Positions 7,237 through 57,739 are shown, counted from the stretch's first letter. The stretch is DNA of 64,000 nucleotides from Candidatus Omnitrophota bacterium (GCA_030698625.1 JAUYMS010000048.1:21879-85878), one strand, 5' to 3'. Program-made: numbers and translations. Notes: generated by a model not told the origin, from the letters alone.

Positions 7237-7259
7237 GGAAGCGCGAGCCAGATATCATA

Positions 7260-8392: not shown

Positions 8393-8407
8393 TGTTGATG
8401 AGGTGTC

Positions 8408-43400: not shown

Positions 43401-46400
43401 GATTATGATGCTCTTATGGCATTGGAAATGGTTCATCCGGAGATGAAACTTTGGATTTTGGATGAGGCAGTGAAGGTATCGAATGCGCTACAAATAAAGG
43501 CCTTCGAGTTCGAACATAACCACATGATGGCGCGATTCGACGAAACGGAACGGGTGATGCAATCACTTCAAAAAATAAAGGATCGCAAGGCAATGGAACT
43601 GGCGCTTTGGATTGTGATCGGGAAAGTTCCCGAACCTTTGGGCGAGGCCTACGGCAAAGGATTAGGTGTTTTAGAAGAGGCGCTTGGGGTCGAAGGATTG
43701 GACGGGGTCAGAATCCTGTTGCGGCGGCAGAATCGAAACTTCATTCGAAGCGTGATGCAGCTGGCGCTCACTCAAATTTCACAGCGCGAAGAAGCGGCAG
43801 CTTACCGGGCTCAGGTAGAGGCGCTGCCGGATAGCGATCCGATGAAAGCCCTGCTGTTGGAGGCATTTGACGCGCTCGATGCAAATCTGCAAAGATTCCT
43901 AAAGCAGTTGGACCGCTCCGAACTGCGTGCTGACGAAGCCGATAAGGTCGTCATCCACCCGGTGATTCGGGAGCATATTGCAGCGTGGCTGATCGAGTAC
44001 CTTAAGCCCGAGCGGCTGCCGCCGGGACGGGAGTTCAGCGCGGACACGCTGGATGCCGTGATTCTCGAGCCCGACAAGGCACCGGATATCCTCAATGCTG
44101 CAGGAGCACAAATCAAAAAGAAGCATAAAGCTGGTCTGGTTAGCGAGCTCAAGGTGCAGCTGCGTGTGGCCTCGGCCTTTGCTTCTGCCAAAGAAGCGGG
44201 CGTTGTGGACCAGACGACTGCGGAAGATACCCACAGGATGACCGTCATTGCAAAATTTGCTGATCGCACGGAGGCTTCCAGAAAGGACTTTGCGGCGAAA
44301 CTTGCCGTGAGTGTGAAGCAGCAAGTCGAGCAATTGTCCGACAGCCAACTGCTCGCAATTTCGATGGACCTGGAATTACTTCGCGAGCAGGCAGTGCGGG
44401 CAGCCGCGGCCGCTCCCCAGAAACTCCGGTTTCAACCGCCGTTCTTTGTGGCCATGGGCTTTGGCCCCTCAGCTCTCAGGCAGGCCTTTCGCACAAGCCT
44501 GATTCAGCGCGGCGTGAGTACGACCGGCGCAGACGATTTCTTGAATACCCTTGAAGACAAAAAGCATGTGACGCCGGTCTGGGACGCGGCTGATGTTATC
44601 GGCAAGGCGGCTGCACAGGTTACGCTTCCGGGCGGCATTACGGTAAACATTCTGGACGAAAAAGACATTCATCTCATCAACTCTCTGCTAGCGGCCGGCG
44701 GGCGGACCGAACAGCTTCGCGTCTGGCTCGTCAACGGCCGTCTCATTATGGCGCTCTTCGGTGAAGTGACGCATGAAACGCTTGCGCTTGATGAGCTGGA
44801 TGACGACACCCAACTTGGCGTCGGCATTCGCACCTATACGTCATTCACAGCGGCGACGCCGCTCGCCCTGATCGGCGAGGCCACCCGCGATCACGGAACG
44901 CTCGAGATCTACCGGCCGGTGATTCAGTTGAAGGCTTCCGAGCAGAGCCAAACAGTCAAGACCACGCTAGCCAAGGAAAATCCTGAGTTTTTCAAAGCGT
45001 GGACGAATGCCGAACGTGAGAAGTGGTCCGAACAACTCAGTGACCTCGACCGCTTTGCGGCAGACATGGAGGCCATGACCCGTTTCCGCGGTGTTAGCGA
45101 CCTTATCTCCATGATATTCAGCCAGTCGGCAAGCCAGCAGTTCGGTGACCTTGCCGAGATTTTTCAGAAACTGGCGTCGGTTGAAAGCACGGCACAGCAG
45201 CTCCCGTTTATCCCCGACACCCTCTTCGATTTCATCGGGAGATTCGACCCGTTTCAGGGTTTATATGCCAAGGTACACGAACTCGCACTTGCAAGTTCCG
45301 AAGACGCCTATCGCCTGCTGCTTCTGCAGTGGGCCCAGACGAAAAACGAAACCCGGATTACCGTACCCGTGGCCAGGCTGCGGGCAGAGCTGGAACTTGA
45401 GCTTCTCGAAGGGCTCTTGAGTGGCAAGCCGGAGGATCTCGCAGCGAATCTCGAAAAACTTCTGACGACGGATCCTCAGCAGCAACTGTTGAATCTTTTT
45501 GGGGAGCTCAATGAAGCGGCCAAACAGCACAAGGAGGCTCCCGAAGGTTTCCTTGCCGAACTCGAACAGGCGAAAGGGATGCTGAGATCTATATTGAAGT
45601 TGGACGAAGGCCGCCTCGAGCTGCCGGCTGCCGATCGGCCGGTAGAATCTGGTTTGGACGCGCTGCGCGATGAACGCGATCGCATGGGAATGGTAATAAG
45701 GATTGCGGACATTGACGATGCGGCCTTTCCTCTCGGCGAAAAAGTACGCATTGTCTCCGATGTGACAGGCGCTTTTATTCAGGAAGCGCGTTACGATGAC
45801 TCTCTCATTAAAGAATTGATCCTAAATAATCAGGATGCCCGCTATTCGGCGGCCCAAAACGAAGAGGCGCACAGAGTCGTCTCGGACCTCATCTCAAAAA
45901 CGTACAATGAGCAGTTCCGGCCGGCGATCGCCGAGGGGCGCCTTGCGGATGCCGAAAAGGCCTGGGCGCGTTTCGTGCGTCTGACTACCGGCGGCTACAT
46001 CGTTTCGATCACGGCAGATAACCACAAATTCGATTATGTCGTTCCTACGGCAACCGAAGCAGATCTTAACGAACTCGTAAAGGGCCATACCGTAAAATCG
46101 GAATTTTTCCAAGCGCTCATAGACCACAAGGCAAACATCGGTGCGGCCGAGAATGCCCGCACTTCCATTACCTTCGTGACACGCACGGCCGAGCGCTTTA
46201 CCGTAGCCCTTATGCAGCGTGCCGATATTCAACAGGCATTACGTGAAGCCGGAATCGACGAGGTCCGCATTATCGGCACCGTGATCAAAACCGACAAGGA
46301 GGCCCTCGGAATCGACGAATACGATATCGTGCGGGCGCCGGTAGAAAAAGAGGATGTGTACGTATTCCCGAGTCTAGGCGAGACCTATTTCGTGGACGAC

Positions 46401-47366
46401 AAATCCGCGGCGAAATACGAAGGCCGCTTCGAGAAACGAATCATTAATGTAGAAGCCGTGAACCGCTCCGAGCTGCGGACCGCTACGGCTGAAGTCGCAT
46501 TGCAGACTCCGTGGGAGACTGAATTTGCCGATGCATTGCGTGCGATCGAGAACGTGTTGTGGGGCCGTTACGAGATTACGCGCGAAGTCACGGTGATTGC
46601 CGCACGCCTCATTTTGCCGATTATTCCGCAGGACGTGCTGAATGCCGGGCGCGTGCGTGAATTCCTCGAGGCCGATCTGTTCGGGCCGCAGTCGCGTGCC
46701 CTCGCGGCCGTCACCGGTATCGATACCTTCTCGGATCAGGCGCAGGCGAATCTGGCGCAAGCGGCGATCAATATCCGTCTTCTGGATCGAGTGCCCGAGA
46801 ATTCCCGCTACCTTGTCGGGATCGAAAAGATTCTTGCGGACCAACCGGGTCTTTACCTTCGTGCGATTGTGGTGGACGGGGACGAAGCGCAGGTGCGAGC
46901 CGCGGGCGATTTGAATCGTGCCTTCACATATGGCTACCCGCATTTGGCTAATCGGTTCCGGATTGATGTGGTCTCTGAAAGGAGATTGAGTGCCGCTGTC
47001 CAGGAAACGATAGAAGAGACGCATAAGAATGTCCGGGCAACCGAGGCGATTTCCACAGAGGAGCTTCTGGATCGCGCCACCCTTTCGAGTGTGCGCGAGG
47101 AGTGGCTAGAGCGTGTTCTTGTTCAGGCTAAGTGGCGGGTTTATGACAATGTCGAAGAAACGCGTTTGGGCGAGGAGCTTGTCGGGATTCAACTTGAAGC
47201 CCTCCTAGCGGCCGACCACCTTGATGCCGAATTGCTCAAACAACTTGAAGGTCGGCAAAAAGAGCGTCATATTACTCGTCAGGATCTTTATAATGCCGTG
47301 GATGAGGTTGCCGCGAATCTTTGGGAAGCCTATCTCGGCGATCGTAAGTTTTACGAAGCAGCCTAA
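16455..47366 (+). CDS. Giant 10,303-aa modular membrane-anchored mega-protein built of enzyme-like domains separated by RSELR motifs
   Basis: 30,912 nt with no stop codon in one frame. Consistent codon structure throughout, and only short spurious ORFs on the opposite strand. N-terminal signal/TM anchor. Domains are recognisable by direct motif alignment (see domain features). Confidence 0.9.
   Translation: [10303 protein letters not shown]
16506..16562 (+). other. N-terminal signal peptide / signal-anchor helix of the giant protein
   Basis: [21 protein letters not shown]: positive n-region, hydrophobic core, AWS-AP possible signal peptidase site. Confidence 0.6.
16700..18010 (+). other. 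TraB/GumN/TIKI-like domain (module 1)
   Basis: [15 protein letters not shown] resembles the TraB GTAHV block. C-terminal [13 protein letters not shown] resembles the TraB-family GxGH block. Confidence 0.35.
19200..19900 (+). other. Calcineurin-like (PPP-type) metallophosphoesterase domain (module 2)
   Basis: Ordered motifs TDYHG (GDxHG-like), GDYVDRG (GDxxDRG) and GNHE in canonical spacing. Confidence 0.6.
21850..23300 (+). other. PEP synthase / pyruvate-phosphate-dikinase-like ATP-grasp nucleotide-binding domain plus phosphohistidine (PEP-utilizers mobile) domain; no C-terminal PEP/pyruvate TIM barrel (module 3)
   Basis: [29 protein letters not shown] aligns to PPDK [52 protein letters not shown]...[11 protein letters not shown] aligns to VQAMVFGN.G.TSGTGV.FTRNP...LYMLQ.[22 protein letters not shown] aligns to TSHAAVVARGWGKCCV, so the phospho-His is retained. 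[14 protein letters not shown] aligns to GDWLSLDGSTGEV. No GLCRTEHMF-type barrel follows. Confidence 0.7.
24345..24389 (+). repeat. 45-nt direct repeat copy A (encodes [15 protein letters not shown])
   Basis: tcggaattgcgcgaggcagggaccgcgatgcggtccgagctgcgc is 43/45 identical to copy B at 26424-26468, with a 41-nt perfect core. Confidence 0.9.
24650..26220 (+). other. Two protein-kinase-like (APH/RIO/Kdo-kinase-like) motif blocks within module 4
   Basis: [32 protein letters not shown] and [32 protein letters not shown] resemble the HGDLHPGNILV...IDW catalytic-loop / DFG-like arrangement. Weak. Confidence 0.25.
26424..26468 (+). repeat. 45-nt direct repeat copy B (encodes [15 protein letters not shown])
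   Basis: tccgaattgcgcgaggcagggaccgcgatgcggtccgagctgcgt, 2079 nt downstream of copy A in the same frame. Confidence 0.9.
27300..27960 (+). other. Glu/Leu/Phe/Val dehydrogenase-like domain, NAD(P)-binding part (module 5)
   Basis: [17 protein letters not shown] aligns to GDH [32 protein letters not shown]...[23 protein letters not shown] aligns to KTFVVQGFGNVG...VGESDGSIWNPDGID. The upstream GGxKGG catalytic-Lys motif is not evident. Confidence 0.6.
29100..29760 (+). other. M50 (site-2-protease)-like transmembrane HExxH metalloprotease-like block (module 6, N-terminal part)
   Basis: Hydrophobic helix [18 protein letters not shown] directly followed by HERGH (nt 29343-29357). Downstream AAAGPAAS (cf. 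M50 AGPxxN) and a further helix ending AFLDRL (cf. LDG). 3-4 TM helices. Confidence 0.4.
29900..30800 (+). other. Enolase C-terminal TIM-barrel domain (module 6, C-terminal part); no enolase N-terminal capping domain
   Basis: Colinear match to enolase: GGVHT/[153 protein letters not shown]. All barrel catalytic and metal residues are conserved. The first ~140 aa of enolase are absent. Confidence 0.75.
31760..32700 (+). other. Glucosamine-6-phosphate deaminase (NagB)-like domain (module 7, N-terminal half)
   Basis: IQIPTGSTP (LPTGGTP), FNLDEYVGL (FNMDEYVGL), [24 protein letters not shown] ([25 protein letters not shown]), [24 protein letters not shown]. Confidence 0.8.
32920..33500 (+). other. 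LmbE/PIG-L-like deacetylase domain (module 7, C-terminal half); with the NagB part this gives a NagB-II-type architecture
   Basis: [13 protein letters not shown] (AHPDDE zinc motif) and DPHGAHGLG (HxxH) about 150 aa later. Confidence 0.6.
38460..39080 (+). other. DUF218 (YdcF/SanA/ElyC)-like domain (module 12)
   Basis: [35 protein letters not shown]...[19 protein letters not shown] resembles DUF218 VLGg....R...a..l...g....iivsGG...le..StnT.eNa. Confidence 0.35.
39250..40260 (+). other. D-isomer-specific 2-hydroxyacid dehydrogenase (PGDH/D-LDH-like) domain (module 13)
   Basis: [32 protein letters not shown] (substrate-binding domain signature), [18 protein letters not shown] (NAD-binding GxGxxG-like), [14 protein letters not shown] (Arg/Glu of catalytic triad), RSPHILAST (catalytic His). 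Confidence 0.75.
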
Positions 47367-47380
47367 AAAGAAAGTACTCA

Positions 47381-48115
47381 ATGCCGCGTCGCAGCATCCT
47401 GGTCCTCGATTCTCCGGATACCCACTGGACTTCTCTTATTCAAGAATATTTTCAGGATACTTCTTCGCAGGTCGATTGCTTTGATGCAGCTGCCCCGGCG
47501 GGTCAGGCCCTGGATAAAACCGGTCACGATCTAGCCTTTATAAACCCCAAACTTCTCAATCTTGCCCTGACCCAAAAACTCCTTTCTGTACGACAGACCC
47601 GGCCGGATTTCCGTATCTTTGGTTTGGGTAAAGCCGCTCAAGCAAATAAAATTCCTTACAGCGCTCTCTTTGAAGAGGAGATCTCCTTGTTTGACTTTAG
47701 CAAGAAGGTGGTCGAGGCTGTGCCGCTTCCCGAGGCGATTCAGGTCGTGGTGGTTGACGATGAGGAGGCTATAGCCGCCATGGTTTGTGATTACTTGAAA
47801 GGGCGATCGAATCCGGTTTTTCAGGTGCGTTACGCAAAGAACGGTGAAGAGGGGATGCGGCACTTGACTGAAAAGCAGCCCGATGTGCTTATACTCGACA
47901 TCAAGATGCCCGTCAAAGACGGGCGTGAGGTGTATCGCGAAATTCAGGCGAAGAAATGGAATTTCCCGGTGGTCGTTTTCTTTGATGCGGTTTCAGCTCA
48001 CGAAATGCTTGAGATTCGAAAGGCCGGTAACCCCGTAGTCCTCGAAAAGGGTTCACGCGAAAGCACCATGCCTGAGATGATGGTCCTCATTAAAAAACTC
48101 GCCTTCTTCGGGTAA
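47381..48115 (+). CDS. Response regulator with tandem receiver domains (first degenerate), no output domain
   Basis: C-terminal half VVVVDDEEAIA...DVLILDIKMPVKDG...PVVVFF is a canonical REC with an acceptor Asp. N-terminal half ILVLDSPD...HDLAFINPKL is REC-like with Asp->Asn at the acceptor position. Starts 14 nt after the giant-ORF stop. Confidence 0.75.
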   Translation: MPRRSILVLDSPDTHWTSLIQEYFQDTSSQVDCFDAAAPAGQALDKTGHDLAFINPKLLNLALTQKLLSVRQTRPDFRIFGLGKAAQANKIPYSALFEEEISLFDFSKKVVEAVPLPEAIQVVVVDDEEAIAAMVCDYLKGRSNPVFQVRYAKNGEEGMRHLTEKQPDVLILDIKMPVKDGREVYREIQAKKWNFPVVVFFDAVSAHEMLEIRKAGNPVVLEKGSRESTMPEMMVLIKKLAFFG

Positions 48116-48119
48116 CCGC

Positions 48120-49214
48120 ATGAAACCGTTGCGTCAGCTGCTAATAGGGCTTATTTTTACCGCGCTCTTAGGGTCGGGATGCGCGTTGATGCTGCCCTCC
48201 AAAGCGATTACCGAAGATGGCTGGGGCACGGAGGGGCCTTACCGCGGCGTATTCCATGTCCACAGCGAACACTCTCACGATTCTGCCATTACCTTTGAAG
48301 ATGCCCGGAAGACGGCAAAGAAGGCGAATCTGGATTTCGTGGTCATCACCGACCATAACAATCTGGATGGGCGCGCGGCATACGCTGACGGTGAGTATGA
48401 GCCGTACCCCTTGCTTGTGCTCGGCACCGAAATCACGACCGGTGACGGCCATCTCATTGCGCTGGGTATCGACGAGTATCCGCAGAAACAGTCAACTAAA
48501 GAGCTTGTGAAGTGGATTCACGACCGCGGTGGATACGTGGTAGCGGCCCACCCCTTGTCGGTGAGAACTCCGTGGACTGACTGGAGCATCAAGGATATCG
48601 ACGGCTTTGAGGTTTATAACTTTGGTCATGCCGCCTACACGCAGAATAAGGTGCTCTTGGCCTTGAAGGCGCTTTTCTATCCGCCGCACAAATTCCTGAA
48701 ATCAACCCAAGACGCTCCGCTGGATCACATTCGCTTTTGGGAACAGAATCTCACAGGCAACCACACGGCGATCGTCGGTGCGGCGGACGCACATATTCAC
48801 TTTGAGTTCCTCGGGATGTCGCCTGAGAATTTGCGTATGTACTTTGAATCTGTTACCACTTATGTGATAGCGAATCGTCTGGAAGAAAAGGCTGTGGTGA
48901 AAGCGATCGGGGAGGGCAGAAGTTACCTCGCCTTTGAGGTGCGAGGCGATGCCTCCGGGTTTACCTTTACGGCGGTTTCCGGTTCTCGGGAATTGGAAAT
49001 GGGGGATACGGCACGGTCCGGCAAGTCCGTGGAGTTTAAGGCGGCATCGCCGGGACGGGCCTGGATGTACCTTATCAAGAACGGCCAAGTCGTTGAGAGC
49101 CGGCGCGGAACGGAACTGCGCTTCACAACGGCAGATGCGGGTGTGTATCGGGTGGAAGTTCACAAAGACGGAGGGCTGTGGATTCTCTCCAATCCAATCT
49201 ATGTGGAGCCTTAA
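48120..49214 (+). CDS. Secreted PHP-domain metal-dependent phosphoesterase
   Basis: Signal peptide MKPLRQLLIGLIFTALLGSGCA. PHP motifs GVFHVHSEHSHDS, FVVITDHNN and later His/Asp blocks. Starts 4 nt after the response-regulator stop. Confidence 0.8.
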   Translation: MKPLRQLLIGLIFTALLGSGCALMLPSKAITEDGWGTEGPYRGVFHVHSEHSHDSAITFEDARKTAKKANLDFVVITDHNNLDGRAAYADGEYEPYPLLVLGTEITTGDGHLIALGIDEYPQKQSTKELVKWIHDRGGYVVAAHPLSVRTPWTDWSIKDIDGFEVYNFGHAAYTQNKVLLALKALFYPPHKFLKSTQDAPLDHIRFWEQNLTGNHTAIVGAADAHIHFEFLGMSPENLRMYFESVTTYVIANRLEEKAVVKAIGEGRSYLAFEVRGDASGFTFTAVSGSRELEMGDTARSGKSVEFKAASPGRAWMYLIKNGQVVESRRGTELRFTTADAGVYRVEVHKDGGLWILSNPIYVEP

Positions 49215-49390: not shown

Positions 49391-50470
49391 GTGAATATAA
49401 AAAGTTTTGCTCACAGGTTGCTTTCGTGTCTGATACTGTCGCTGCTGTTATCGGGGTGTGCGGTATGGCGGCCGTTCTCCGCGAACACGATTAATGCAAC
49501 CCCCGAGTTGAGCGAGGAGTACCGGGAGTATTACGATTATCCAACACCCGACCTCGACGGTCGATTGGTGTTTGAGGAGGAGAAGACCTATTATACCCTG
49601 CGTCGGTACGAGATCCCGTTAACCTTGCCCGAGTCTCTTCAGCATGATTCTCCGGCTTCCTTGAAACAAGCGGCCGAAAAAAAAGCGGAAACAGATCAGA
49701 AAAACGCCCGAGATCTCGAACTCCGGTATTTAACGCGAATCGATTACTATCTTCCGAAGAACCTGCAGCCGGGCCAGAGACGGCCGGCGATTCTGATCTC
49801 GCCGATTCTGGGCGGCAATATGGTGGTCGACCGCTTCGCTAACTATTATGCAGGTCGCGGTTTTGTCGTGGTGCTCGCACACCGCAAAAAAACTTTCTGG
49901 GTGGACGGACGCGGGATTCAGCAGGTGGAAGACTATATGCGGACCTCGGTGATCCGGCTGCGGCAAGCAGTGGATTGGCTCATGATTCAGCCGGAAGTCG
50001 ATCCCGATAGGATCGGAGCTTTTGGCATTAGCTATGGGGCGGTGCTTCACACGGTCCTGGCGGCCGTTGAACCGCGATTGAAATATCACGTGTTAGCTAT
50101 GCCCGGCGGACCTCTTCCGGAGGTGATTCGAGATTGTCCGGACGGGAACATTACCAAGCTATGGCGTAATGCACAGCGGGATACAGGGTGGCCCGACGAG
50201 AAGATTCTTGAGGAGCTGAGACGTGTGCTCAAGACCGATCCGATTTTGCTGGCACCTTATGTGCCGCGCGAAAAAGTGCAAGTGTATGTCGCCATCTTCG
50301 ATCGCGTTGTGGGTGCGGGCCGTTCCTGGGGTTTATGGAAAGCGCTTGGCAAACCCGATCTCAAAATCATGCCCTTCGGCCATTACGGCGGGGTCCTCGT
50401 GTTTCCCTTCCTACAGAGCCAGTCCGCCTGGAATCTTAAGCGGCATCTCGGCCAAGCTCGTCAAAATTAA
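49391..50470 (+). CDS. Lipoprotein alpha/beta-hydrolase (dienelactone-hydrolase/S9-like)
   Basis: The ORF is open from 49178. GTG 49391 gives a classic lipoprotein signal MNIKSFAHRLLSCLILSLLLSGC (lipobox LSGC), preceded by GAGGGG. GISYG nucleophile elbow, ILISPILGG. Alternative ATG starts are at 49307 and 49316. Confidence 0.65.
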   Translation: MNIKSFAHRLLSCLILSLLLSGCAVWRPFSANTINATPELSEEYREYYDYPTPDLDGRLVFEEEKTYYTLRRYEIPLTLPESLQHDSPASLKQAAEKKAETDQKNARDLELRYLTRIDYYLPKNLQPGQRRPAILISPILGGNMVVDRFANYYAGRGFVVVLAHRKKTFWVDGRGIQQVEDYMRTSVIRLRQAVDWLMIQPEVDPDRIGAFGISYGAVLHTVLAAVEPRLKYHVLAMPGGPLPEVIRDCPDGNITKLWRNAQRDTGWPDEKILEELRRVLKTDPILLAPYVPREKVQVYVAIFDRVVGAGRSWGLWKALGKPDLKIMPFGHYGGVLVFPFLQSQSAWNLKRHLGQARQN

Positions 50471-52874
50471 AGCGCAGGTATTCGGTTTCGGCAGCGCGCT
50501 TTCCGTCTTTTGCATTGGCAACCCAGAAATCCGGAAAAGCATAGACCACGCTTTGAATGTTGGATTGCGGTGCGATTTCGAGTGCTATCGCCTGAGCGAC
50601 TTCGGCATCAATTTTACCGAAGTGATCCTGCACGAGATTCCCGTGTTTGAGATAACGGATTTCATAGGCACTGCCGCGCGGAACTTCCAAGCCGGGCGTG
50701 TCGGGATCTCCCTTGGAGGCCCTCTGAAGATTTCGTATGACGGGGTCGAGGGCCGGGTCGCCTCGAAATACCGCGCTGTGAACAGGCAGGGCATAATTGA
50801 CGGTCAGCTCATGCGGGTCGTGATCGCGAAAGACGGCAAGGTGATTTTGTGTGGTTTCAACCGCAACCGCCTCTTTGCGCACGGCATCGGCGATCAAATA
50901 ATTGTAACCGCGGGTGCGGTAGTTCCGCTCTAAGATACCGATCGCATCCTCCAAGCTTTCAGCCTCGGCCAAAACACGCTTCAAGAGAAACGGCATAGGA
51001 ACGCCTTCCATGGTTTCATCGACGGATGTGGCACCGATCTGGCCGACAGACAATCCCCGCGCATTCATTCCTGACAGGACACCCGTGAATCCGTAATAAC
51101 CAATATTGACATAATTCGGTCCCGCGCCGTTCTCGACATATTTTACGACCGCCCACTCGTGCACCCCCATGTGACGATTCCAGTCGAGATTGCGAATCGC
51201 AATTAACTGACCGCTTGATGTTGCCGGACCCCAATAGGCCCCGTTAGAACAGAACGTAGGATACAGTTCGGGCATGGCGTGAATACGCTGCAGGACTTTT
51301 AATGAGACACCGGATCCGTCGGCCATTCCCTTAAGTTGTTGTTTTTCTTCATAAGACACATAAGGCGCCATCTTTTTCCAGGCTCGATCGCCGATGTGAT
51401 TGATGATTAGGCGATTCAACAAAGGAAGATGCAGCTCTGAGCGGAAATACTTAAAGATTGCCGAGGATCCCGTGCGGATTTCATCGCGTAGTAGCCGGCC
51501 TTCTTCATACCCGCGGTGGTAGGCCGTTCCCCCAAGTTTTAGCACGGGGAGGTCTTGGTGGTAATAGAGGTCCGCCGGTTTCTCGATTCTTTCTTCGGGC
51601 GTCTTCACGGCGGCGAGCAATTTCGCTACGCGTTCGTGATAAAAGTCACTCAGCTTACCGCCATAGAAACTGACGCGCGATTCGTATTGACCGGCGCCTT
51701 TATGGTATTGATGCGGGCTGACGGCATAGCCGACATAGTCATTGGCGTATCCGGCAATAAAGGGTTTTAACGCGGATGAGCGAATCTGCCGTTCGAGGGC
51801 ATAGCCGACATCCGAGGCAAGCTCGCCCGGAAAAGTTACGACCACGAAATCTCCCATGCGGATCGCCTGAAAGTATGTTTTTCTCGGAAAGATACGGTTG
51901 CCCAGAATTGATGGAATACGGAACCAGCCCAATCGAATGCGGGTTCGGGGCAGCCGGACCCGTTGAATCTCAGTTTTCCATACACCGTTTAAGTTGAGCG
52001 GCGCATAGGAAACTTGTGCAACCTTTGCGACTATCGCCTTGCCGTAGTTCTCCATGCTTCGCCACCGGTCTTCGGCAGCTTGGGTGTGCGGACGGAGATC
52101 GCCTGCGGCACCGTTGATGAAGACGGTTACCGATCCGGTATGCATCTCTTCAAGGCGGCTTGTCACGACTCCGGGATAATCGGCCGAAAAGGAAAGTTCC
52201 CTCCATGGTGCGAGGGTTGCATGTGCGGCCATGAACAAAATCTGCCCGGCAAGGCTCCCGTCGGTTTTCTTGAAGCGCATAAGTTTCAAGTGTTTGGGGT
52301 GAGTTAGCTTTTTGTCCATCCTGTTTTCGACTAAGTCATCAATACGTACAGAACCGTATTCGGCCCGAACGGGAATGGGATTTTGTATCGATTCAATGAT
52401 GGTTCGGGCGACCTGATCCGTGAGTTTCTCAAAAACAGATTTCCGGAATTTTCCCATGATATATTTTTCCCAATGGCGTCCTCCTATTGCGCCGGATCCC
52501 GTATGCGTGTGCGTCGCTGTCAAGAGGAGGTCTTCGGAGCGGAGAAGGACACCTGCATTCACTTTCTGCAGGATCGTCTTTCGCAGTTTCTCGTCGATGA
52601 GACAGAGGTCCAAAGAGACAAAAACAATTTTCTGATCGCCGTAACTGAGTGCAAGAGACCGCGCGTAGAGGGGGTCATGCATACCCACAGACGGTTTGCC
52701 CCGAATCTTTCCGTAGCCGGAGAGGGGGGTTCCTATGGCCGGCGTGATCTCGTTCTTTGCCGTGCCTAGGGTGAGCTCGGCGGCCCGGCATGTATTGATA
52801 TAACATGTTGATATAGATAATGTTATAAAAATAGCTGCCAGTAGGCGCCCGATGCTATGTTGGATTCTGCTCAT
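50436..52874 (-). CDS. Secreted fusion of a neutral/alkaline ceramidase catalytic domain (N-terminal) and a C45-family (acyl-CoA:6-APA acyltransferase-like) Ntn-hydrolase domain (C-terminal)
   Basis: N-terminal signal peptide. ITPAIGTPLSGYGKIRGKPSVGMHDPLYARSLAL...IVFVSLDL and TATHTHTGSGAIGG (neutral ceramidase blocks). C-terminal GTAYHRGYEEGRLL, FCSNGAYWG (Ntn Cys), RNLDW, NYLIAD (C45 blocks). Convergent 35-nt overlap with the lipoprotein gene. Confidence 0.75.
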   Translation of the reverse strand: MSRIQHSIGRLLAAIFITLSISTCYINTCRAAELTLGTAKNEITPAIGTPLSGYGKIRGKPSVGMHDPLYARSLALSYGDQKIVFVSLDLCLIDEKLRKTILQKVNAGVLLRSEDLLLTATHTHTGSGAIGGRHWEKYIMGKFRKSVFEKLTDQVARTIIESIQNPIPVRAEYGSVRIDDLVENRMDKKLTHPKHLKLMRFKKTDGSLAGQILFMAAHATLAPWRELSFSADYPGVVTSRLEEMHTGSVTVFINGAAGDLRPHTQAAEDRWRSMENYGKAIVAKVAQVSYAPLNLNGVWKTEIQRVRLPRTRIRLGWFRIPSILGNRIFPRKTYFQAIRMGDFVVVTFPGELASDVGYALERQIRSSALKPFIAGYANDYVGYAVSPHQYHKGAGQYESRVSFYGGKLSDFYHERVAKLLAAVKTPEERIEKPADLYYHQDLPVLKLGGTAYHRGYEEGRLLRDEIRTGSSAIFKYFRSELHLPLLNRLIINHIGDRAWKKMAPYVSYEEKQQLKGMADGSGVSLKVLQRIHAMPELYPTFCSNGAYWGPATSSGQLIAIRNLDWNRHMGVHEWAVVKYVENGAGPNYVNIGYYGFTGVLSGMNARGLSVGQIGATSVDETMEGVPMPFLLKRVLAEAESLEDAIGILERNYRTRGYNYLIADAVRKEAVAVETTQNHLAVFRDHDPHELTVNYALPVHSAVFRGDPALDPVIRNLQRASKGDPDTPGLEVPRGSAYEIRYLKHGNLVQDHFGKIDAEVAQAIALEIAPQSNIQSVVYAFPDFWVANAKDGKRAAETEYLRFNFDELGRDAA

Positions 52875-52944: not shown

Positions 52945-54963
52945 ATGGTTAAATTGCTTAGGCTGAGTCGACTCAGACATGAATTTCTTAATCTCGTCAA
53001 TGATCGCCGGAAGCAGTACGAGTTTCTGGTCGGGATTGTGATCGCGCTTGTTCTGTTCGGCATTTGGCGGGCGGGATCCTTCGATAAATTTGAGAATGTT
53101 TTTTTGGATTTGCGTTTTCTGCTTCGTCCCATCAGAGCCTTTCCGGAGGCCATCAATGTCATTGGCATTGATGAAGCCAGTCTTGATCATCCGGATCTCG
53201 GGCGCTGGCCCTGGTCGCGTCAAAAGCACGGGCACCTTCTTTATCTTCTGAGTCAGCGGAGTTTTCGTCCCGCCGAGGTGGGCTACGACGTTCTGTTTGA
53301 GAACAAGGACAAGTACGAACCCTCGGGAGACGATAGCCTTGCTTACCGGGCCGAGCAGTTTGCGCCGCATGTCTTTATGTCCTATTTTTTGGAAAAGGGA
53401 TTTGTCTCAAAGTTTGAGTACAACGAAGAGAAGCAAAAGCGGCTTGAAGACTTCGCTGTTCTGAACGACTCGCGAGCTCCGCCCAACCTATTGGAATACG
53501 ACAAAGTTTCCGTTCCTTACCTTGAGTTGGCGAAGGCCTCGAATCTCGGGTTTGTCAACGCGCCCGTCGACTCCGACGGCCGTACGAGGCGCATTCCGCT
53601 TCTCGTCCGCTACCGGGGTAAGACTTACCCGTCATTCAGTTTACTCATGGCGTTACAGCGTTTGGGTGCCGGTATATTGGATATTCAGGTGCGGGAGGAC
53701 AGAATTATAATCGAGAAGGAAGACCTGCACCGTGTCATACCTCTCACGGATCGCGGCGAAATGCTCATCAATTATTACGGCAGCAGCGCACTCATTACGA
53801 GCTATTCCTTTCTGGAGGTTCTCTCGGCCGGTAAAGCGTGGATGGACGGCGAGACTAATCCCGAAATTCTTCAGTCCTTCAAAGACAAGCTCGTGTTAGT
53901 GGGCGCAACAGCGCTTGGGCTCAAGGATAGCCGGACGACACCCTTCTTTGAGTATGAACCCGGCGTCAGTATCCAGGCGCAGGCGATTGCCAATATTCTC
54001 GACAATGCCTTTTTGGCCCACGCTGCGTGGCCGGTATCGGCCGCAATGCTGTTTCTTTTGGCCTTTCTAGTGACCGTTATCACCATGTTGACGCGAATTA
54101 CGTACTCTCTTCCGCTCACGATCGGTTTGGGGGTCGCTTATTTTTTCGGAAACCTGCTTCTGTTCATCAACGGAATATGGATCGATATGGCGGCTCATAT
54201 GGCGGCTATCGCTCTCATCTTCATTAGCATCACATCCTTCCGCTATTTTACGGCGCTGCAAGAATTGAAGCGAGCGCAGGAACAGCTTATTCACTCCACT
54301 AAAATGGCATCTATGGGGGAGTTGTCTGCGGGTATCTCGCATGAATTCCGCAATATTCTGAATGCGATCAATCTTCATATTGAATTTTGTGCCATGCCGG
54401 GACGAACCCCGGAGCAGATTTCAAAATACATGGTGAAAATCAAAATGATCATGAAAAATGCCAGCATGATTCTAAACGGACTGCTTACTTTCGCGCGCAA
54501 GAGTGAATCCAATAAGGTGCTGGGTAGTCTGAATACGACAGTAGAGGAAACCCTCCTGCTTATTGAAAAGGAAATGATGCGGCACAAGATTTCGATTAAT
54601 GCGCAGTTGCACGATGTCCCTCAGGTTGCCTTTGATAAGGGGCAGATCTCGCAGGTCATCATGAATCTCATCAATAACGCCCGTGATGCGCTTCAGAATC
54701 AGGATGAAAAACTCGTGACGCTTACACTTACCGAAGAGGCGCATTATGTGCGTCTTGATATCGGAGACAATGGGGCCGGCATCCCGCCGGAAGTGCTCAA
54801 GCGCTTGTTCGAGCCTTTCGTGACCAGTAAACCCGCGGGAAAGGGAACCGGGTTGGGTCTTTCGGTTTGTCACGGCATCATCACGAATCACGGCGGTGAA
54901 ATTAAAGTGACAACTCTCCGCGGCAAGGGTACCACCTGGCATATCTTTTTCCCAAAATCCTAG
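52945..54963 (+). CDS. CHASE2-domain sensor histidine kinase
   Basis: N-terminal TM helix plus periplasmic CHASE2-like region and 3 TM helices (aa ~330-420). HisKA ELSAGISHEFRNILNAI. HATPase N/G1/G2 boxes IMNLINNARDAL, DIGDNGAGIP, GKGTGLGLSVCHGIITNHGGEI. Confidence 0.85.
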   Translation: MVKLLRLSRLRHEFLNLVNDRRKQYEFLVGIVIALVLFGIWRAGSFDKFENVFLDLRFLLRPIRAFPEAINVIGIDEASLDHPDLGRWPWSRQKHGHLLYLLSQRSFRPAEVGYDVLFENKDKYEPSGDDSLAYRAEQFAPHVFMSYFLEKGFVSKFEYNEEKQKRLEDFAVLNDSRAPPNLLEYDKVSVPYLELAKASNLGFVNAPVDSDGRTRRIPLLVRYRGKTYPSFSLLMALQRLGAGILDIQVREDRIIIEKEDLHRVIPLTDRGEMLINYYGSSALITSYSFLEVLSAGKAWMDGETNPEILQSFKDKLVLVGATALGLKDSRTTPFFEYEPGVSIQAQAIANILDNAFLAHAAWPVSAAMLFLLAFLVTVITMLTRITYSLPLTIGLGVAYFFGNLLLFINGIWIDMAAHMAAIALIFISITSFRYFTALQELKRAQEQLIHSTKMASMGELSAGISHEFRNILNAINLHIEFCAMPGRTPEQISKYMVKIKMIMKNASMILNGLLTFARKSESNKVLGSLNTTVEETLLLIEKEMMRHKISINAQLHDVPQVAFDKGQISQVIMNLINNARDALQNQDEKLVTLTLTEEAHYVRLDIGDNGAGIPPEVLKRLFEPFVTSKPAGKGTGLGLSVCHGIITNHGGEIKVTTLRGKGTTWHIFFPKS

Positions 54964-55021: not shown

Positions 55022-56923
55022 ATGAAATTATTCATCGTATTTTTTATTGCGTGCTATGCGTGTCTTGTACCCACGGCCCGAGCCGAAATCCTTATGGGGC
55101 TTTCGGATGCCGAGTTGCTCGAGACAATCGAGCGAAAGGCATTTGATTATTTTGTCTATGAGCGGGATTCAAAAACGGGGCTCGTGAAGGACAAAGCGCA
55201 TAATTTCCAAAGGGGAGCGACAAAGTCGACATCGAGCATTGCGGCGACAGGCTTTGCCCTTACGGCTTATGGCGTAGGCGTCCAGAACGGCTGGATGGAT
55301 ATCTCAACCGCGCGCGAGATGACGCGGCGAACGCTTCATTTCTTTCTTCATAACGCGGCGTCAGAGCGTGGTTTTTTCTATCACTTCCTAAATATGGAGA
55401 CCGGTGAAAGGGCTCGTCGCAGCGAACTCTCACCCATCGATACGGCGCTTTTTCTCGCCGGGGCCCTGTATGCCGCAGAGTATTATGATGATCAGGAAAT
55501 CAGGGATCTCGCGACGCAGCTCTATGAGCGGGTGGATTGGGCATGGATGCTGCATGGTGAGCTCACTCTGGCCAAAGCGTGGTCCCCGGAAACGGGTTTC
55601 GAAAAATACCGTTGGGATAGTTATGACGAAGCGATGATTATGTACCTGTTGGCCATCGGATCGCCGACGCATCCGCTTCCGGCGGAGAGTTGGCAGGCAG
55701 TGGCCCGGCCCGTAGGAAGCTACGGCGGTTATCGCGTTATTCAAATGCCTCCGTTATTCACGCACCAGTATTCCCATATCTGGATTGATTTCCGAAATAA
55801 GAATGACGGTTACGCGGACTATTTTCAAAACTCGGTGAACGCTACTTTGGCAAACCGCGCCTTCTGTATCAAAGAGTCGGCAAAGTTCTCAAGCTACGGA
55901 GCGACCTCGTGGGGGTTGACGGCCTCCGACGGACCCTTCGGCTACCGTGCCTTCGGCGCACCGCCGGGTTGGGCGGAGCACAACGGGACGATTGCTCCCA
56001 CGGGCTGTGGGGGATCCATCGTGTTTACTCCGGAAGAATCGATTGCGTGCCTGAGGCACTTTTACGAAGACCTCGGAGAATCGCTCTGGGGCATGTACGG
56101 ATTTTCCGATGCGTTTAACCTCGATAAAAACTGGTTTAGCCGGGATGTTCTCGGGATTGATCAGGGCACACTTTTGCTGATGATTGAAAATTACCGTTCG
56201 GGTCATGTGTGGGATGTTATGAGCAGAAATACCTATTTGGCGGGGGCTATGGAGTTGGTGGGGTTTCGTTCGGGTACGAAGGAAGTGCCCTGGCCGGATC
56301 CCCCGAAGTTTCACGCGCCTTATCTCAGCGACGGCATCAAAGTCGACGGCTATTTGAAAGACTGGCCAAACGGAGAAGTGATCATCCTGGATAAATCGCA
56401 TAAGGAAACGGGAAGCATTCAGGACGACAAGGATCTCAAGGCGGAGGTGCGGTTTGCCTGGAGTGAGCAAGCCCTTTATTTCTATGCGAAGGTTACCGAC
56501 GAGTCCGTGCTGGTGAGAAAATCGGGTAAGGACATATGGCTCGATGACCTTATCGAAATTTACATTGATCCTGCCGGTGACGGCCTCTCCTGGGGCGATG
56601 ATCGCGATTATCAAATCGGTTTTCGCGCCCGAGAGGAGGATGAAGAGGTGCTAAGCTGGTCCTGGTTCCAGGGCGGCGAGGACCCGGGCGAAAAAGGAAT
56701 GGTCGCGGCGCGCGGCTTCGTTTATGAGGATGGCTACATTATAGAGGGGGGCATTCGCTGGCGATACCTGGGGCTGGAGCCAAGCGAGGTTGAGACCTTG
56801 AAGCTTTCGGTGGCTGTGCACGATATTGACCATGACCGCAGCCAGGGAAAGGTTCAGTGGTTTTTTCGTAATGAAGATGAGCTCAAACGGTTTGTCCTGG
56901 GTGAGGTTGTATTGACGCGATGA
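55022..56923 (+). CDS. Secreted (alpha/alpha)6-barrel glycoside hydrolase of the PF10091 'glucoamylase-like'/GH144-type family with a C-terminal CBM9-like domain
   Basis: Signal peptide. Blocks SIAATGFALTAYG, IDTALFLAGALY, GLTASDGPFGY, IAPTGCGGSI, GIDQGTLLLMIENY. C-terminal DGYLKDW...AEVRFAWSEQALYFYAKVTDE...DDLIEIYIDP (CBM9-like). Confidence 0.6.
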   Translation: MKLFIVFFIACYACLVPTARAEILMGLSDAELLETIERKAFDYFVYERDSKTGLVKDKAHNFQRGATKSTSSIAATGFALTAYGVGVQNGWMDISTAREMTRRTLHFFLHNAASERGFFYHFLNMETGERARRSELSPIDTALFLAGALYAAEYYDDQEIRDLATQLYERVDWAWMLHGELTLAKAWSPETGFEKYRWDSYDEAMIMYLLAIGSPTHPLPAESWQAVARPVGSYGGYRVIQMPPLFTHQYSHIWIDFRNKNDGYADYFQNSVNATLANRAFCIKESAKFSSYGATSWGLTASDGPFGYRAFGAPPGWAEHNGTIAPTGCGGSIVFTPEESIACLRHFYEDLGESLWGMYGFSDAFNLDKNWFSRDVLGIDQGTLLLMIENYRSGHVWDVMSRNTYLAGAMELVGFRSGTKEVPWPDPPKFHAPYLSDGIKVDGYLKDWPNGEVIILDKSHKETGSIQDDKDLKAEVRFAWSEQALYFYAKVTDESVLVRKSGKDIWLDDLIEIYIDPAGDGLSWGDDRDYQIGFRAREEDEEVLSWSWFQGGEDPGEKGMVAARGFVYEDGYIIEGGIRWRYLGLEPSEVETLKLSVAVHDIDHDRSQGKVQWFFRNEDELKRFVLGEVVLTR

Positions 56924-57567: not shown

Positions 57568-57739
57568 CCTTTAGTTAAGTCCAATGAGTGACGATACTTA
57601 AGAGACGAGAACTCGGCTAGGCCGTTACGGACACAACCTGGGTTTTTGCGAACCCAAATATGTGGAGTGTGGTATCCTTATGTCATCGGCATGGGGTGCC
57701 GCCCGTGAGTCGCGAAACGATTTAACAGAAAGCATATGG

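What the first reader, a model, noticed from the sequence alone, without database searches (positions are those of the whole stretch)
50436..52874. Unusual fusion: neutral-ceramidase catalytic domain joined to a C45-family Ntn-hydrolase domain
The N-terminal ~420 aa carry the neutral/alkaline ceramidase blocks (GYG...HDPLYARS...VFVSLDL; ATHTHTGSG). The C-terminal ~390 aa carry C45 blocks (GTAYHRGYEEG, FCSNGAYWG, RNLDW, NYLIAD). Both families cleave acyl-amide bonds, and fusing them in one secreted protein is not an architecture I recognise. Bacterial neutral ceramidases are themselves uncommon, and are mostly found in host-associated or sphingolipid-containing taxa.
Basis: partly seen in the sequence, partly recalled or inferred. 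Interest (0 to 1): 0.55.

Follow-up and report, generated by a model that had tools for sequence, protein, structure and literature searches.

The report
Exported two-amidase fusion: ceramidase-like plus C45
A secreted protein of an uncultured Omnitrophota bacterium really does join a zinc ceramidase-like amidase to a cysteine self-cleaving amidase, but this pairing, as one gene or two adjacent genes, is routine in that phylum, and its substrate, probably a fatty-acyl amide lipid, is unknown.

Summary
Window 50436..52874 (-) encodes an 812-aa protein with a signal peptide. Its N-half is a neutral-ceramidase-like zinc amidase (PF04734). Its C-half is a complete C45 Ntn-hydrolase proenzyme (PF03417 and NF040521, both above curated cut-offs). 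No ceramidase C-terminal beta-sandwich was detected.

Both catalytic sets are invariant or nearly so in 31 fused homologues: H122/H124/R185/H218/E351/Y383/Y397 and C542/R561/D564. The AlphaFold model (pLDDT 89.6) matches P. aeruginosa and human neutral ceramidase in the N-half. The C-half matches isopenicillin-N acyltransferase, NAAA and acid ceramidase.

The architecture is not rare. It was found in 27 fetched loci (Omnitrophota, Nitrospirales, Hydrogenedentota) and in about 50 of the best 150 clusters in an exhaustive search. In 37 further loci, nearly all Omnitrophota, the two halves are adjacent separate genes, each with its own signal peptide where I checked. This is a Rosetta-stone pair.

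A lipase-like alpha/beta-hydrolase lipoprotein and a CehA/McbA-type PHP metallohydrolase are conserved neighbours. In Nitrospirota they flank a stand-alone ceramidase-like gene on the same strand. Beta-oxidation genes abut the fusion in two other lineages.

Best reading: an exported, self-cleaving, two-active-site N-acyl-lipid amidase. The substrate is inferred, not shown. It is an undescribed variant of known families, and of moderate interest.

The parts
50436..52874 (-). Complete gene for the 812-aa fusion protein (stop codon 50436..50438). NCBI protein MDP3921461.1, named 'neutral/alkaline non-lysosomal ceramidase N-terminal domain-containing protein'.
   Evidence: ORF list. Exact match in the public collection.
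52782..52874 (-). Signal peptide, about aa 1-31 (MSRIQHSIGRLLAAIFITLSISTCYINTCRA|AE). The cleavage position is inferred.
   Evidence: Basic n-region and hydrophobic h-region are read directly from the translation. The model shows a lone helix at aa 2-24 and pLDDT below 50 at aa 25-29. In my reading of the alignment nearly all of the 31 homologues have an N-terminal hydrophobic leader before the conserved GxAKxEITP. Distant fused and split homologues also have leaders.
51600..52781 (-). Neutral-ceramidase-like Zn-amidase domain, about aa 32-425. Putative Zn ligands are H122, H218, E351 and Y383. Putative helpers are H124, R185 and Y397.
   Evidence: PF04734 E=1.8e-25. phmmer and profile hits to 2zws and 4wgk. 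Foldseek 2zws E=2.9e-30. The residues are invariant or nearly invariant in A1.
51573..51599 (-). Short inter-domain linker, about aa 426-434. Its length varies among homologues.
   Evidence: Alignment A1 shows insertions here (columns ~555-620). Secondary structure comes from the model.
51252..51572 (-). C45 'alpha-subunit' segment, aa 435-541: two short strands followed by five helices. After self-cleavage it would stay covalently attached to the ceramidase-like domain.
   Evidence: NF040521 match starts at aa 449. DSSP shows H451-537. Foldseek matches the precursor forms of IAT, NAAA and acid ceramidase.
51249..51251 (-). Codon of Cys542, the predicted N-terminal nucleophile. The predicted autoproteolytic site is F541|C542.
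   Evidence: TFCS translated. C542 is invariant in 31 sequences. It sits at the start of strand E541-547.
50439..51251 (-). C45 'beta-subunit', aa 542-812, carrying C542, R561, D564, N604 and R740.
   Evidence: PF03417 and NF040521. The RNLDW motif aligns to the RNLDY/RNMDF motif of NAAA and acid ceramidase. These residues are invariant in A1.
49391..50470 (+). Conserved convergent neighbour: an alpha/beta-hydrolase (esterase/lipase-like) lipoprotein. The likely GTG start at 49391 gives 359 aa with lipobox LLLSGC and nucleophile elbow GISYG. Its 3' end overlaps the fusion gene by 35 nt.
   Evidence: Pfam Peptidase_S15/DLH. Best solved relative is 'Lipase' 8yzn, E=1.7e-8. Translation. It lies next to the fusion in 13 of 15 fused Omnitrophota loci.
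48120..49214 (+). Conserved neighbour: a PHP-fold CehA/McbA-family metallohydrolase, a probable lipoprotein (LLGSGC).
   Evidence: PF02811. NF038032 scores 118 bits against a cut-off of 80. Synteny.
47381..48115 (+). 244-aa response-regulator-domain protein, syntenic with the PHP/ABH genes in the fused clade. Its link to the enzymes is uncertain.
   Evidence: PF00072. Synteny.
52945..54963 (+). Divergently transcribed CHASE2 sensor histidine kinase, 70 bp from the fusion gene's start. A possible regulator, not tested.
   Evidence: PF05226, HisKA and HATPase_c. A homologue occurs in L008, several kb upstream of the fusion gene. Other loci have a small response regulator in this position instead.

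Best explanation
The gene encodes an exported (periplasmic or secreted) enzyme with two different amide-bond-cleaving active sites.

Step 1 (inferred from sequence): Sec export and removal of a ~31-aa signal peptide.

Step 2 (inferred from family behaviour): the C-terminal C45 module cuts its own chain between F541 and C542. This turns Cys542 into the N-terminal nucleophile and opens its substrate channel. The result is a non-covalent heterodimer. One chain is the ceramidase-like domain plus the helical alpha-segment (~57 kDa). The other is the ~30 kDa beta-chain.

Step 3 (inferred from conserved residues): the N-domain uses a Zn2+ bound by H122/H218/E351/Y383, with H124/R185/Y397 as helpers, to hydrolyse an N-acyl amide. 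The C-domain uses Cys542 with R561/D564 to hydrolyse a second N-acyl amide. That second bond may be in a different lipid, or it may be a second amide in the same lipid.

Step 4 (inferred from gene context): the acyl groups are fatty acids. The enzyme works alongside a lipase-like alpha/beta-hydrolase lipoprotein and a CehA/McbA-type PHP metallohydrolase lipoprotein. Together they strip ester- and amide-linked acyl chains, and possibly a head group, from membrane or envelope lipids. Candidates are ceramide-like lipids, amino-lipids, lipoprotein anchors or lipid A. The released fatty acids go to beta-oxidation.

The exact substrate is not known.
For: Domain identity passes curated thresholds.

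The model is confident (pLDDT 89.6, pTM 0.87). Its N-half matches neutral ceramidases 2zws and 4wgk (E~1e-30). Its C-half matches IAT precursor 2x1c (TM 0.77), NAAA precursor 6dxw (0.71) and acid ceramidase 5u84 (0.69).

All seven residues that I aligned to the P. aeruginosa ceramidase Zn site and helpers are identical. They are invariant or nearly invariant in 31 homologues.

C542, R561 and D564 align to the Cys/Arg/Asp of NAAA and acid ceramidase (roles from PMC5915598) and are invariant. Of 103 proteins carrying both halves, 72 keep both catalytic sets.

Functional coupling of the two halves is supported by 27 fused and 37 adjacent-split loci, always in the order CER then C45. Some splits are a single in-frame stop codon. 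Others have 4-nt overlapping stop and start codons. Both split products have their own signal peptides.

Hydrolase partners: the ABH is convergent and abutting in 13 of 15 fused Omnitrophota loci. PHP, CER and ABH lie on the same strand in 6-7 of 7 Nitrospirota loci.

Fatty-acid link: an enoyl-CoA hydratase gene (ECH_1, 4.6e-63) overlaps the fusion's start by 4 nt in L074. Relatives sit in the same position in L056, L066, L067 and L068. FadB-like and acyl-CoA dehydrogenase genes plus a large alpha/beta hydrolase lie directly upstream in L003.

Precedent for a ceramidase working with an adjacent lipid-head-group hydrolase: P. aeruginosa PlcH and its neighbouring neutral ceramidase (PMC8634861).
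Against: No member of this subfamily has been assayed, so there is no biochemical evidence for it. The protein fails the neutral-ceramidase equivalog model (39.6 against 1200 bits). It lacks the C-terminal beta-sandwich. It has Arg where classical enzymes have the Ser of the NxGDVSPN motif, so ceramide itself may not be the substrate.

The ABH and PHP genes are on the opposite strand in Omnitrophota, and in the split clade they are separated from the pair by housekeeping genes such as ispH. Part of this 'association' may therefore be inherited synteny.

Beta-oxidation neighbours are seen in only two lineages, not in this window. CehA/McbA relatives are carbamate hydrolases and the ABH has PETase-like similarity, so non-lipid amide or ester substrates are possible.

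I could not inspect the model's pockets or the distance between the two active sites.
Confidence: 0.6

Rival explanations
1. A deacylase/transacylase remodelling enzyme. The C45 half works like isopenicillin-N acyltransferase and transfers an acyl group via a Cys542 thioester onto an amine acceptor. The ceramidase-like half, whose relatives also catalyse the reverse reaction, removes or installs the other acyl chain. The protein would then edit N-acyl chains of the cell's own envelope lipids rather than degrade lipids.
For: By fold and curated HMM the C-half is closest to IAT/C45, a family whose founding member is an acyltransferase. The pair is conserved near housekeeping genes in the split clade: CCA-adding enzyme, IspH, PmbA/TldD. 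That fits a house-keeping envelope function.
Against: The protein is exported, and no acyl-CoA is available outside the cytoplasm (established knowledge). By sequence profile the C-half is nearer to the hydrolases NAAA and acid ceramidase than to IAT: E=2.7e-6 and 3.2e-5 against 0.18. The beta-oxidation neighbours point to catabolism.
Confidence: 0.12
2. A hydrolase set for non-lipid amide, ester or carbamate compounds. These could be peptides, beta-lactam-like or aromatic amides, N-acyl-homoserine lactones, or polyester/polyamide-type organic matter. The four exported hydrolases would simply broaden substrate range.
For: The PHP neighbour belongs to the CehA/McbA family, named after carbaryl hydrolases. 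The ABH shows PETase, acetyl-xylan-esterase and dienelactone-hydrolase similarity. Ntn-hydrolases include penicillin, cephalosporin and AHL acylases, which appear among the weaker structural matches.
Against: The closest solved relatives of both halves are lipid amidases. Fatty-acid beta-oxidation genes are the only metabolic genes repeatedly coupled to the fusion. AHL acylases are Ser/Thr Ntn enzymes of another family and match poorly (TM ~0.2).
Confidence: 0.18
3. Only one half is catalytic. The C45 module has been recruited as a structural or regulatory replacement for the missing ceramidase C-terminal beta-sandwich, or the reverse.
For: The C45 module occupies the position of the classical C-terminal domain. 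In the wider family about 25-30 of 103 two-domain proteins show substitutions at the Cys nucleophile or at the Zn ligands, so loss of one activity does happen.
Against: In the window's clade, and in 72 of 103 two-domain proteins, both catalytic sets are intact. The C45 half is the more conserved half: 57-64% against 46-52% identity in all but the deepest-branching fused orthologues. Stand-alone ~450-aa ceramidase-like proteins exist in large numbers without any C-terminal partner, so no replacement is needed.
Confidence: 0.07
4. Artefact: two neighbouring genes merged by a sequencing or assembly error, such as a lost stop codon.
For: In related genomes the two halves are separate genes, sometimes divided by a single in-frame stop.
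Against: The same 812-aa sequence was recovered independently from a Logan assembly of run SRR13727534 and from an NCBI MAG. 27 loci from three phyla have the uninterrupted frame, and the fused Omnitrophota sequences form one clade in a C45-domain tree. The model shows a compact two-domain protein with pTM 0.87.
Confidence: 0.01

Closest known systems
Neutral ceramidase (P. aeruginosa CerN/PaCD, PDB 2ZWS/2ZXC; human ASAH2, PDB 4WGK); Pfam PF04734
   Same: The catalytic-domain fold matches (Foldseek E~1e-30). Identical residues sit at the positions I aligned to the Zn ligands His97/His204/Glu411/Tyr448 and to His99/Arg160/Tyr460 of PaCD (alignments; residue roles are from my own knowledge of Inoue et al. 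2009 and Airola et al. 2015). It is exported. Like PaCD, it is encoded beside another lipid hydrolase.
   Different: Only 16-19% identity. It lacks the C-terminal immunoglobulin-like domain (PF17048). It fails the NCBIfam equivalog (39.6 against 1200 bits). The Ser of the NxGDVSPN motif is Arg (GDLRP). It belongs to the large group of ~450-aa 'N-terminal-domain-only' bacterial proteins, for which I know of no assayed member.
Acyl-CoA:isopenicillin N acyltransferase (IAT/AAT, P. chrysogenum, PDB 2X1C-E); MEROPS C45, Pfam PF03417, NCBIfam NF040521
   Same: It passes both curated HMM thresholds. This is the best structural match for the C-half (TM 0.77 over ~395 columns). The layout is the same: a ~100-aa N-terminal segment, then a Cys that becomes the N-terminal nucleophile after self-cleavage.
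   Different: 13-14% identity. IAT is a peroxisomal, acyl-CoA-dependent transferase (my own knowledge). This protein is exported and fused to a second amidase. The residue before the Cys is Phe here and varies between homologues, whereas it is Gly in IAT (IAT residue from my own knowledge).
Acid ceramidase (ASAH1) and N-acylethanolamine acid amidase (NAAA); MEROPS C89
   Same: These are the closest solved relatives of the C-half by sequence profile: NAAA beta E=2.7e-6, acid ceramidase E=3.2e-5. Structural TM is 0.62-0.71. The Cys...R-N-x-D motif is shared. In acid ceramidase Cys143, Arg159 and Asp162 are the catalytic and autocleavage residues (PMC5915598). Both are fatty-acyl amide hydrolases activated by self-cleavage that exposes a hydrophobic channel.
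   Different: No Pfam hit to the NAAA or CBAH families was reported. These are eukaryotic lysosomal enzymes with an acidic optimum and a saposin helper. The spacing to the oxyanion Asn differs, and I could not map it.
Adjacent-gene version of the same pair in Omnitrophota (for example L035 5932..7236 plus 7233..8450; NCBI 'C45 family peptidase')
   Same: The same two families occur in the same order, and both products are exported. C45 identity to the window's C-half is 42-49%.
   Different: They are two polypeptides instead of one. The ceramidase-like partner is only ~30-35% identical.

Membership tests
Neutral/alkaline ceramidase (PF04734; EC 3.5.1.23) | Match to the catalytic (N-terminal) domain profile above Pfam's gathering score | tested here: met
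   90 bits against a cut-off of 32.1, E=1.8e-25. Foldseek 2zws E=2.9e-30.
Neutral/alkaline ceramidase (PF04734; EC 3.5.1.23) | Zn2+ ligands His/His/Glu/Tyr and catalytic His/Arg/Tyr. PaCD numbering is 97/204/411/448 and 99/160/460 (from my own knowledge). | tested here: met
   HMMER alignments to 2zws place H122, H218, E351, Y383, H124, R185 and Y397 on these positions. They are invariant or nearly invariant in 31 homologues.
Neutral/alkaline ceramidase (PF04734; EC 3.5.1.23) | C-terminal beta-sandwich domain (PF17048) packed on the catalytic domain | tested here: not met
   No such Pfam hit at E<=1. The region after aa ~435 is a C45 module.
Neutral/alkaline ceramidase (PF04734; EC 3.5.1.23) | Orthology to characterised neutral ceramidases (NCBIfam equivalog NF041649) | tested here: not met
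   39.6 bits against a cut-off of 1200.
Neutral/alkaline ceramidase (PF04734; EC 3.5.1.23) | Hydrolysis of ceramide to sphingosine and fatty acid | not testable with these tools
   Needs an enzyme assay.
MEROPS C45 / PF03417 / NF040521 (autoproteolytic acyltransferase/hydrolase) | Profile match above curated thresholds | tested here: met
   PF03417 scores 44.5 bits against 23.2. NF040521 scores 133 bits against 85.
MEROPS C45 / PF03417 / NF040521 (autoproteolytic acyltransferase/hydrolase) | Ntn-hydrolase alpha-beta-beta-alpha fold with the nucleophile Cys at the start of a central strand, preceded by a ~100-aa pro/alpha segment | tested here: met
   Model DSSP shows helices 451-537 and then strand 541-547. 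TM is 0.77 to the IAT precursor 2x1c. C542 is invariant.
MEROPS C45 / PF03417 / NF040521 (autoproteolytic acyltransferase/hydrolase) | Self-cleavage in front of the Cys | not testable with these tools
   The predicted site is F541|C542. Testing needs SDS-PAGE or mass spectrometry of recombinant protein.
MEROPS C45 / PF03417 / NF040521 (autoproteolytic acyltransferase/hydrolase) | Acyl-CoA-dependent acyl transfer (founding member) | not tested
   Judged unlikely because the protein has a signal peptide. This is inference only.
MEROPS C89 (acid ceramidase / NAAA) | Cys-Arg-Asp catalytic constellation (C...R-N-x-D) | tested here: met
   RNLDW aligns with RNLDY of NAAA and RNMDF of acid ceramidase. 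Residue roles come from PMC5915598.
MEROPS C89 (acid ceramidase / NAAA) | Family-level sequence membership | tested here: inconclusive
   Profile hits of E=2.7e-6 to 3e-4 cover only ~120-170 residues. No Pfam NAAA or CBAH hit was reported. I treat this as a superfamily relative, not a member.

The most novel reading that the evidence does not exclude
The fusion and its conserved partners form a dedicated extracytoplasmic 'total deacylation' kit. The partners are the lipase-like lipoprotein and the PHP metallohydrolase lipoprotein. The kit would dismantle complex bacterial envelope lipids that carry both ester- and amide-linked fatty acids, such as lipid A (two N-acyl chains, one for each amidase site), triacylated lipoprotein anchors or ornithine lipids. 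Ultra-small, host-dependent or predatory Omnitrophota would use it to harvest fatty acids from prey or host membranes. This would be the first bacterial enzyme shown to remove the N-linked acyl chains of such lipids.
Probability: 0.1. Interest if true: 0.75.

Novelty: new variant of a known kind. Interest (0 to 1): 0.4.

Why it matters
If both halves are active lipid amidases, the family shows that bacteria have repeatedly coupled the two mechanistically unrelated ceramidase solutions known from animals. One is the Zn-dependent neutral type and the other is the Cys-Ntn acid type. Here they occur in one exported protein or one operon.

This gives a concrete, clonable entry point to two problems. 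One is the function of the very large and unassayed group of ~450-aa bacterial 'ceramidase N-terminal domain' proteins. The other is how uncultured Omnitrophota, Nitrospirota and Hydrogenedentota turn over N-acylated lipids.

The practical value is modest until a substrate is found.

Tried and rejected
1. The AlphaFold-database fold search (afdb50), meant to find named full-length fusions, failed because the library was not available.

2. Literature searches found nothing on this architecture. I tried neutral ceramidase with C45 or Ntn, Omnitrophota with ceramidase, PF04734 with PF03417, and peptidase C45 in bacteria. Three Omnitrophota papers do not mention ceramidase or C45; only the Nature Microbiology paper was also searched for lipid, lipase and amidase, and it has none. 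The only PF04734 paper deals with partial-domain annotation.

3. I could not find open text giving the P. aeruginosa ceramidase active-site numbering. Those residue roles are therefore marked as my own knowledge.

4. A broad MAFFT alignment of 35 distant fusions (A2) was too gappy to read catalytic columns. I replaced it with an HMM-anchored check.

Pocket hydrophobicity and the distance between the two active sites could not be measured.

6. Chimeric or frameshift artefact: rejected.

7. C-half being the ordinary ceramidase beta-sandwich: rejected.

8. Direct link to the adjacent giant ORF: not pursued. It is syntenic in two related loci, but there is no functional evidence.

Full report
**1. 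What is there**

The minus-strand ORF 50436..52874 encodes 812 aa.

Pfam assigns aa 36-267, plus a second stretch, to PF04734 (neutral/alkaline ceramidase N-terminal domain; 90 bits, cut-off 32.1). It assigns aa 555-693 to PF03417 (AAT; 44.5 bits, cut-off 23.2). NCBIfam assigns aa 449-687 to NF040521, 'C45 family autoproteolytic acyltransferase/hydrolase' (133 bits, cut-off 85). The neutral-ceramidase equivalog model scores only 39.6 bits against a cut-off of 1200.

No ceramidase C-terminal domain is reported even at E<=1.

The identical protein is public (NCBI MDP3921461.1) and was also recovered in an independent Logan assembly.

**2. Structure**

I built an AlphaFold2 model from an alignment of 31 fused homologues. 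It has mean pLDDT 89.6 and pTM 0.87. It shows these parts:
- an N-terminal lone helix at aa 2-24, the signal peptide
- a mixed alpha/beta domain to about aa 425
- a short linker
- two strands and five helices (aa 435-537)
- a strand that begins at residue 541 (F541, with Cys542 next)

Foldseek against the PDB matches the N-half to P. aeruginosa and human neutral ceramidase (E 3e-30 to 7e-28). The C-half matches the isopenicillin-N acyltransferase precursor (E 1.6e-16, TM 0.77), the NAAA precursor (1e-12, 0.71) and acid ceramidase (4e-12, 0.62-0.69). Bile-salt hydrolases and penicillin V acylase match at TM ~0.5.

With a sequence profile of the family, the best solved relatives of the C-half are NAAA (2.7e-6) and acid ceramidase (3.2e-5). 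These are ahead of the acyltransferase (0.18). In effect, the protein joins a 'neutral-ceramidase-type' amidase to an 'acid-ceramidase/NAAA/IAT-type' amidase.

**3. Active sites**

*N-half.* In the HMMER alignments to 2zws I counted chain positions. Query H122, H218, E351 and Y383 fall on His97, His204, Glu411 and Tyr448. H124, R185 and Y397 fall on His99, Arg160 and Tyr460. The roles of these residues (Zn ligands and catalytic helpers) are from my own knowledge of the PaCD and human structures. I could not retrieve the papers. The Ser of the classical NxGDVSPN motif is Arg here (GDLRP).

*C-half.* RNLDW aligns with RNLDY of NAAA and RNMDF of acid ceramidase. Query C542/R561/D564 therefore correspond to acid ceramidase Cys143/Arg159/Asp162. 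Their roles in self-cleavage and catalysis are described in PMC5915598.

*Conservation.* In the 31-sequence alignment, H122, H124, R185, H218, Y383, Y397, C542, R561, D564, N604 and R740 are invariant. E351 is nearly so, with Asp in one sequence. An HMM-anchored check of 103 proteins carrying both halves found both sets intact in 72. Substitutions in one or both sites occur in roughly 25-30, mostly distant members, and may partly be alignment error.

**4. How common is the architecture**

The word-indexed search found 45 full-length proteins with both Pfam domains at 46-57% identity, and two more distant ones. Those that carry names are labelled Candidatus Omnitrophica.

A scan of one genome per GTDB species returned 78 loci, most of them labelled Omnitrophota MAGs. 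I tested open reading frames in 83 of the fetched loci, including a few duplicates:
- In 27, both halves lie in one frame. Seven of these are from Nitrospirales and Hydrogenedentota. Pfam confirmed two of them, at 796 and 822 aa.
- In 37, a ceramidase-like gene is immediately followed, on the same strand, by a separate C45 gene.
- In 19, only one half is present.

In four split loci (L022, L023, L024, L026) the two genes are in the same frame and separated by a single stop codon. In L035 and L063 stop and start overlap by 4 nt. In L035 each split product has its own signal peptide. Many stand-alone C45 proteins of 380-440 aa at 42-49% identity exist in Omnitrophota.

A rough neighbour-joining tree of the C45 halves puts the window in a monophyletic fused Omnitrophota clade. 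Its sister is a mostly split clade containing two fused members. The Nitrospirales/Hydrogenedentota fusions form a deep outgroup. Fusion or fission has therefore happened more than once.

The exhaustive HMMER search of 1.84 billion representatives lists about 50 fusion-length proteins among the best 150. These are 740-1,126 aa with one match spanning the junction. Many stand-alone versions of each half are also listed.

The pairing is thus a conserved Rosetta-stone relationship, not a curiosity of one genome.

**5. Gene neighbourhood**

In the window the fusion gene converges on, and overlaps by 35 nt, an alpha/beta-hydrolase gene. From the likely GTG start at 49391 this gene encodes a 359-aa lipoprotein with lipobox LLLSGC and serine motif GISYG. 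It has weak S15, DLH and AXE1 profile hits. Its best solved relative is annotated 'Lipase' (8yzn, 1.7e-8).

Upstream of that lies a PHP-fold protein that passes the CehA/McbA metallohydrolase model (118 bits, cut-off 80). It also has a lipoprotein-like leader. Further out are a response-regulator protein and a giant ORF.

On the other side are a divergent CHASE2 histidine kinase, a glucoamylase-like/CBM9 protein, an HTH-cupin regulator and an RND-type efflux set.

The adjacency counts are as follows:
- The ABH gene abuts the fusion gene (typically 4-84 bp away, opposite strand) in 12 of 15 fused Omnitrophota loci, and lies 3 kb downstream in a 13th. PHP follows in 9.
- In the split clade ABH lies within 6 kb downstream in 21 of 37 loci.
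- In seven Nitrospirota loci a stand-alone ceramidase-like gene is preceded by PHP (7/7) and followed by ABH (6/7) on the same strand.
- The distant fused clade lacks ABH and PHP. Instead it has an enoyl-CoA hydratase gene upstream (ECH_1, 4.6e-63, 4-nt overlap in L074; tblastn hits in the same position in L056, L066, L067 and L068). Downstream it has a conserved, membrane-anchored 513-530-aa protein without Pfam hits.
- In one Omnitrophota genome (L003) a FadB-like gene, an acyl-CoA dehydrogenase and a 720-aa alpha/beta hydrolase lie directly upstream on the same strand.

**6. Interpretation**

Shown here:
- the fusion is real
- both halves belong to their families by curated thresholds and by fold
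- both catalytic constellations are conserved
- the two families are linked by fusion or adjacency across three phyla
- in my reading of the N-terminal sequences, the products I examined carry export signals

Inferred:
- self-cleavage at F541|C542, giving a two-chain enzyme
- Zn-dependent and Cys-dependent hydrolysis of N-acyl amides
- fatty-acyl lipids as substrates, based on the closest solved relatives and on beta-oxidation neighbours in two lineages
- cooperation with the lipase-like and PHP lipoproteins

P. aeruginosa offers a precedent. Its neutral ceramidase is encoded next to PlcH and enhances its action (PMC8634861).

I put 0.6 on 'exported bifunctional N-acyl-lipid amidase'. The rivals are an N-acyl remodelling transacylase (0.12), a non-lipid amide/ester/carbamate degradation set (0.18), one half being non-catalytic (0.07) and an artefact (0.01).

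**7. Novelty and score**

Both domains are well-known families. The combination is already in public protein databases, under generic names such as 'neutral/alkaline non-lysosomal ceramidase N-terminal domain-containing protein', 'neutral ceramidase' or 'hypothetical protein'. I found no paper that describes it.

I class it as a new, undescribed variant of known kinds. A specialist in sphingolipid or Ntn-hydrolase enzymology would find the pairing neat and worth cloning. It is not startling, it does not on its own open a long-standing question, and the substrate is unknown. Interest is 0.4.

The most novel reading not excluded is a dedicated kit for complete deacylation of lipid A or other prey envelope lipids by host-dependent Omnitrophota. 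That would be considerably more interesting (0.75), but I give it only about 0.1.

Noticed in passing
window 16455..47366 (+): A giant ORF of 10,303 aa. The first 10,000 aa show only sparse Pfam hits, and all are to metabolic-enzyme domains: Enolase_C/N, Glu/Leu/Phe/Val dehydrogenase, glucosamine-6-P isomerase, PIG-L deacetylase and 2-hydroxyacid dehydrogenase. Syntenic giant ORFs in L001 (PPDK_N, Gp_dh_C) and L005 (FBPase_glpX) sit in the same place, upstream of the response-regulator/PHP/ABH genes. Giant genes are a known Omnitrophota trait, but this domain content was not looked into.
   Followed up: partly
L059 8328..9893; L065 8292..9884; L074 8412..9953: In the Nitrospirales/Hydrogenedentota fused clade, the fusion gene is followed by a conserved 513-530-aa protein with stop and start overlapping. 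It has an N-terminal membrane anchor and no Pfam hit. L059 and L065 are 32% identical.
   Followed up: partly
proteins P0198, P0204, P0240, P0246, P0255, P0260, P0286, P0289: Proteins of 895-1,689 aa with three or four separate matches to the C45 half of the profile. These may be tandem C45 modules in one polypeptide.
   Followed up: no
L022, L023, L024, L026: The ceramidase-like and C45 genes are in the same reading frame, separated by a single stop codon. This could be recent fission or fusion, or possibly read-through. It was not examined at nucleotide level.
   Followed up: no
window 55022..56923 (+) and 56920..60890 (+): A glucoamylase-like (PF10091) + CBM9 protein, an HTH-cupin regulator and an OEP/MFP efflux set are syntenic with the fusion gene in at least eight related Omnitrophota loci. 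Any functional relation to the amidase is unknown.
   Followed up: partly
L074 9946..12387 (-); L067 9949..12366 (-): A convergent ~810-aa multidomain sulfur-carrier-type protein (Pyr_redox_2 + rhodanese + TusA + DsrE-like) is conserved next to the distant fused operon in two phyla.
   Followed up: no
L069, L070, L073: Nitrospirota/Manganitrophaceae loci carry a second, weaker (21-23% identity) ceramidase-like match between the PHP gene and the main ceramidase-like gene. This suggests a tandem paralogue.
   Followed up: no
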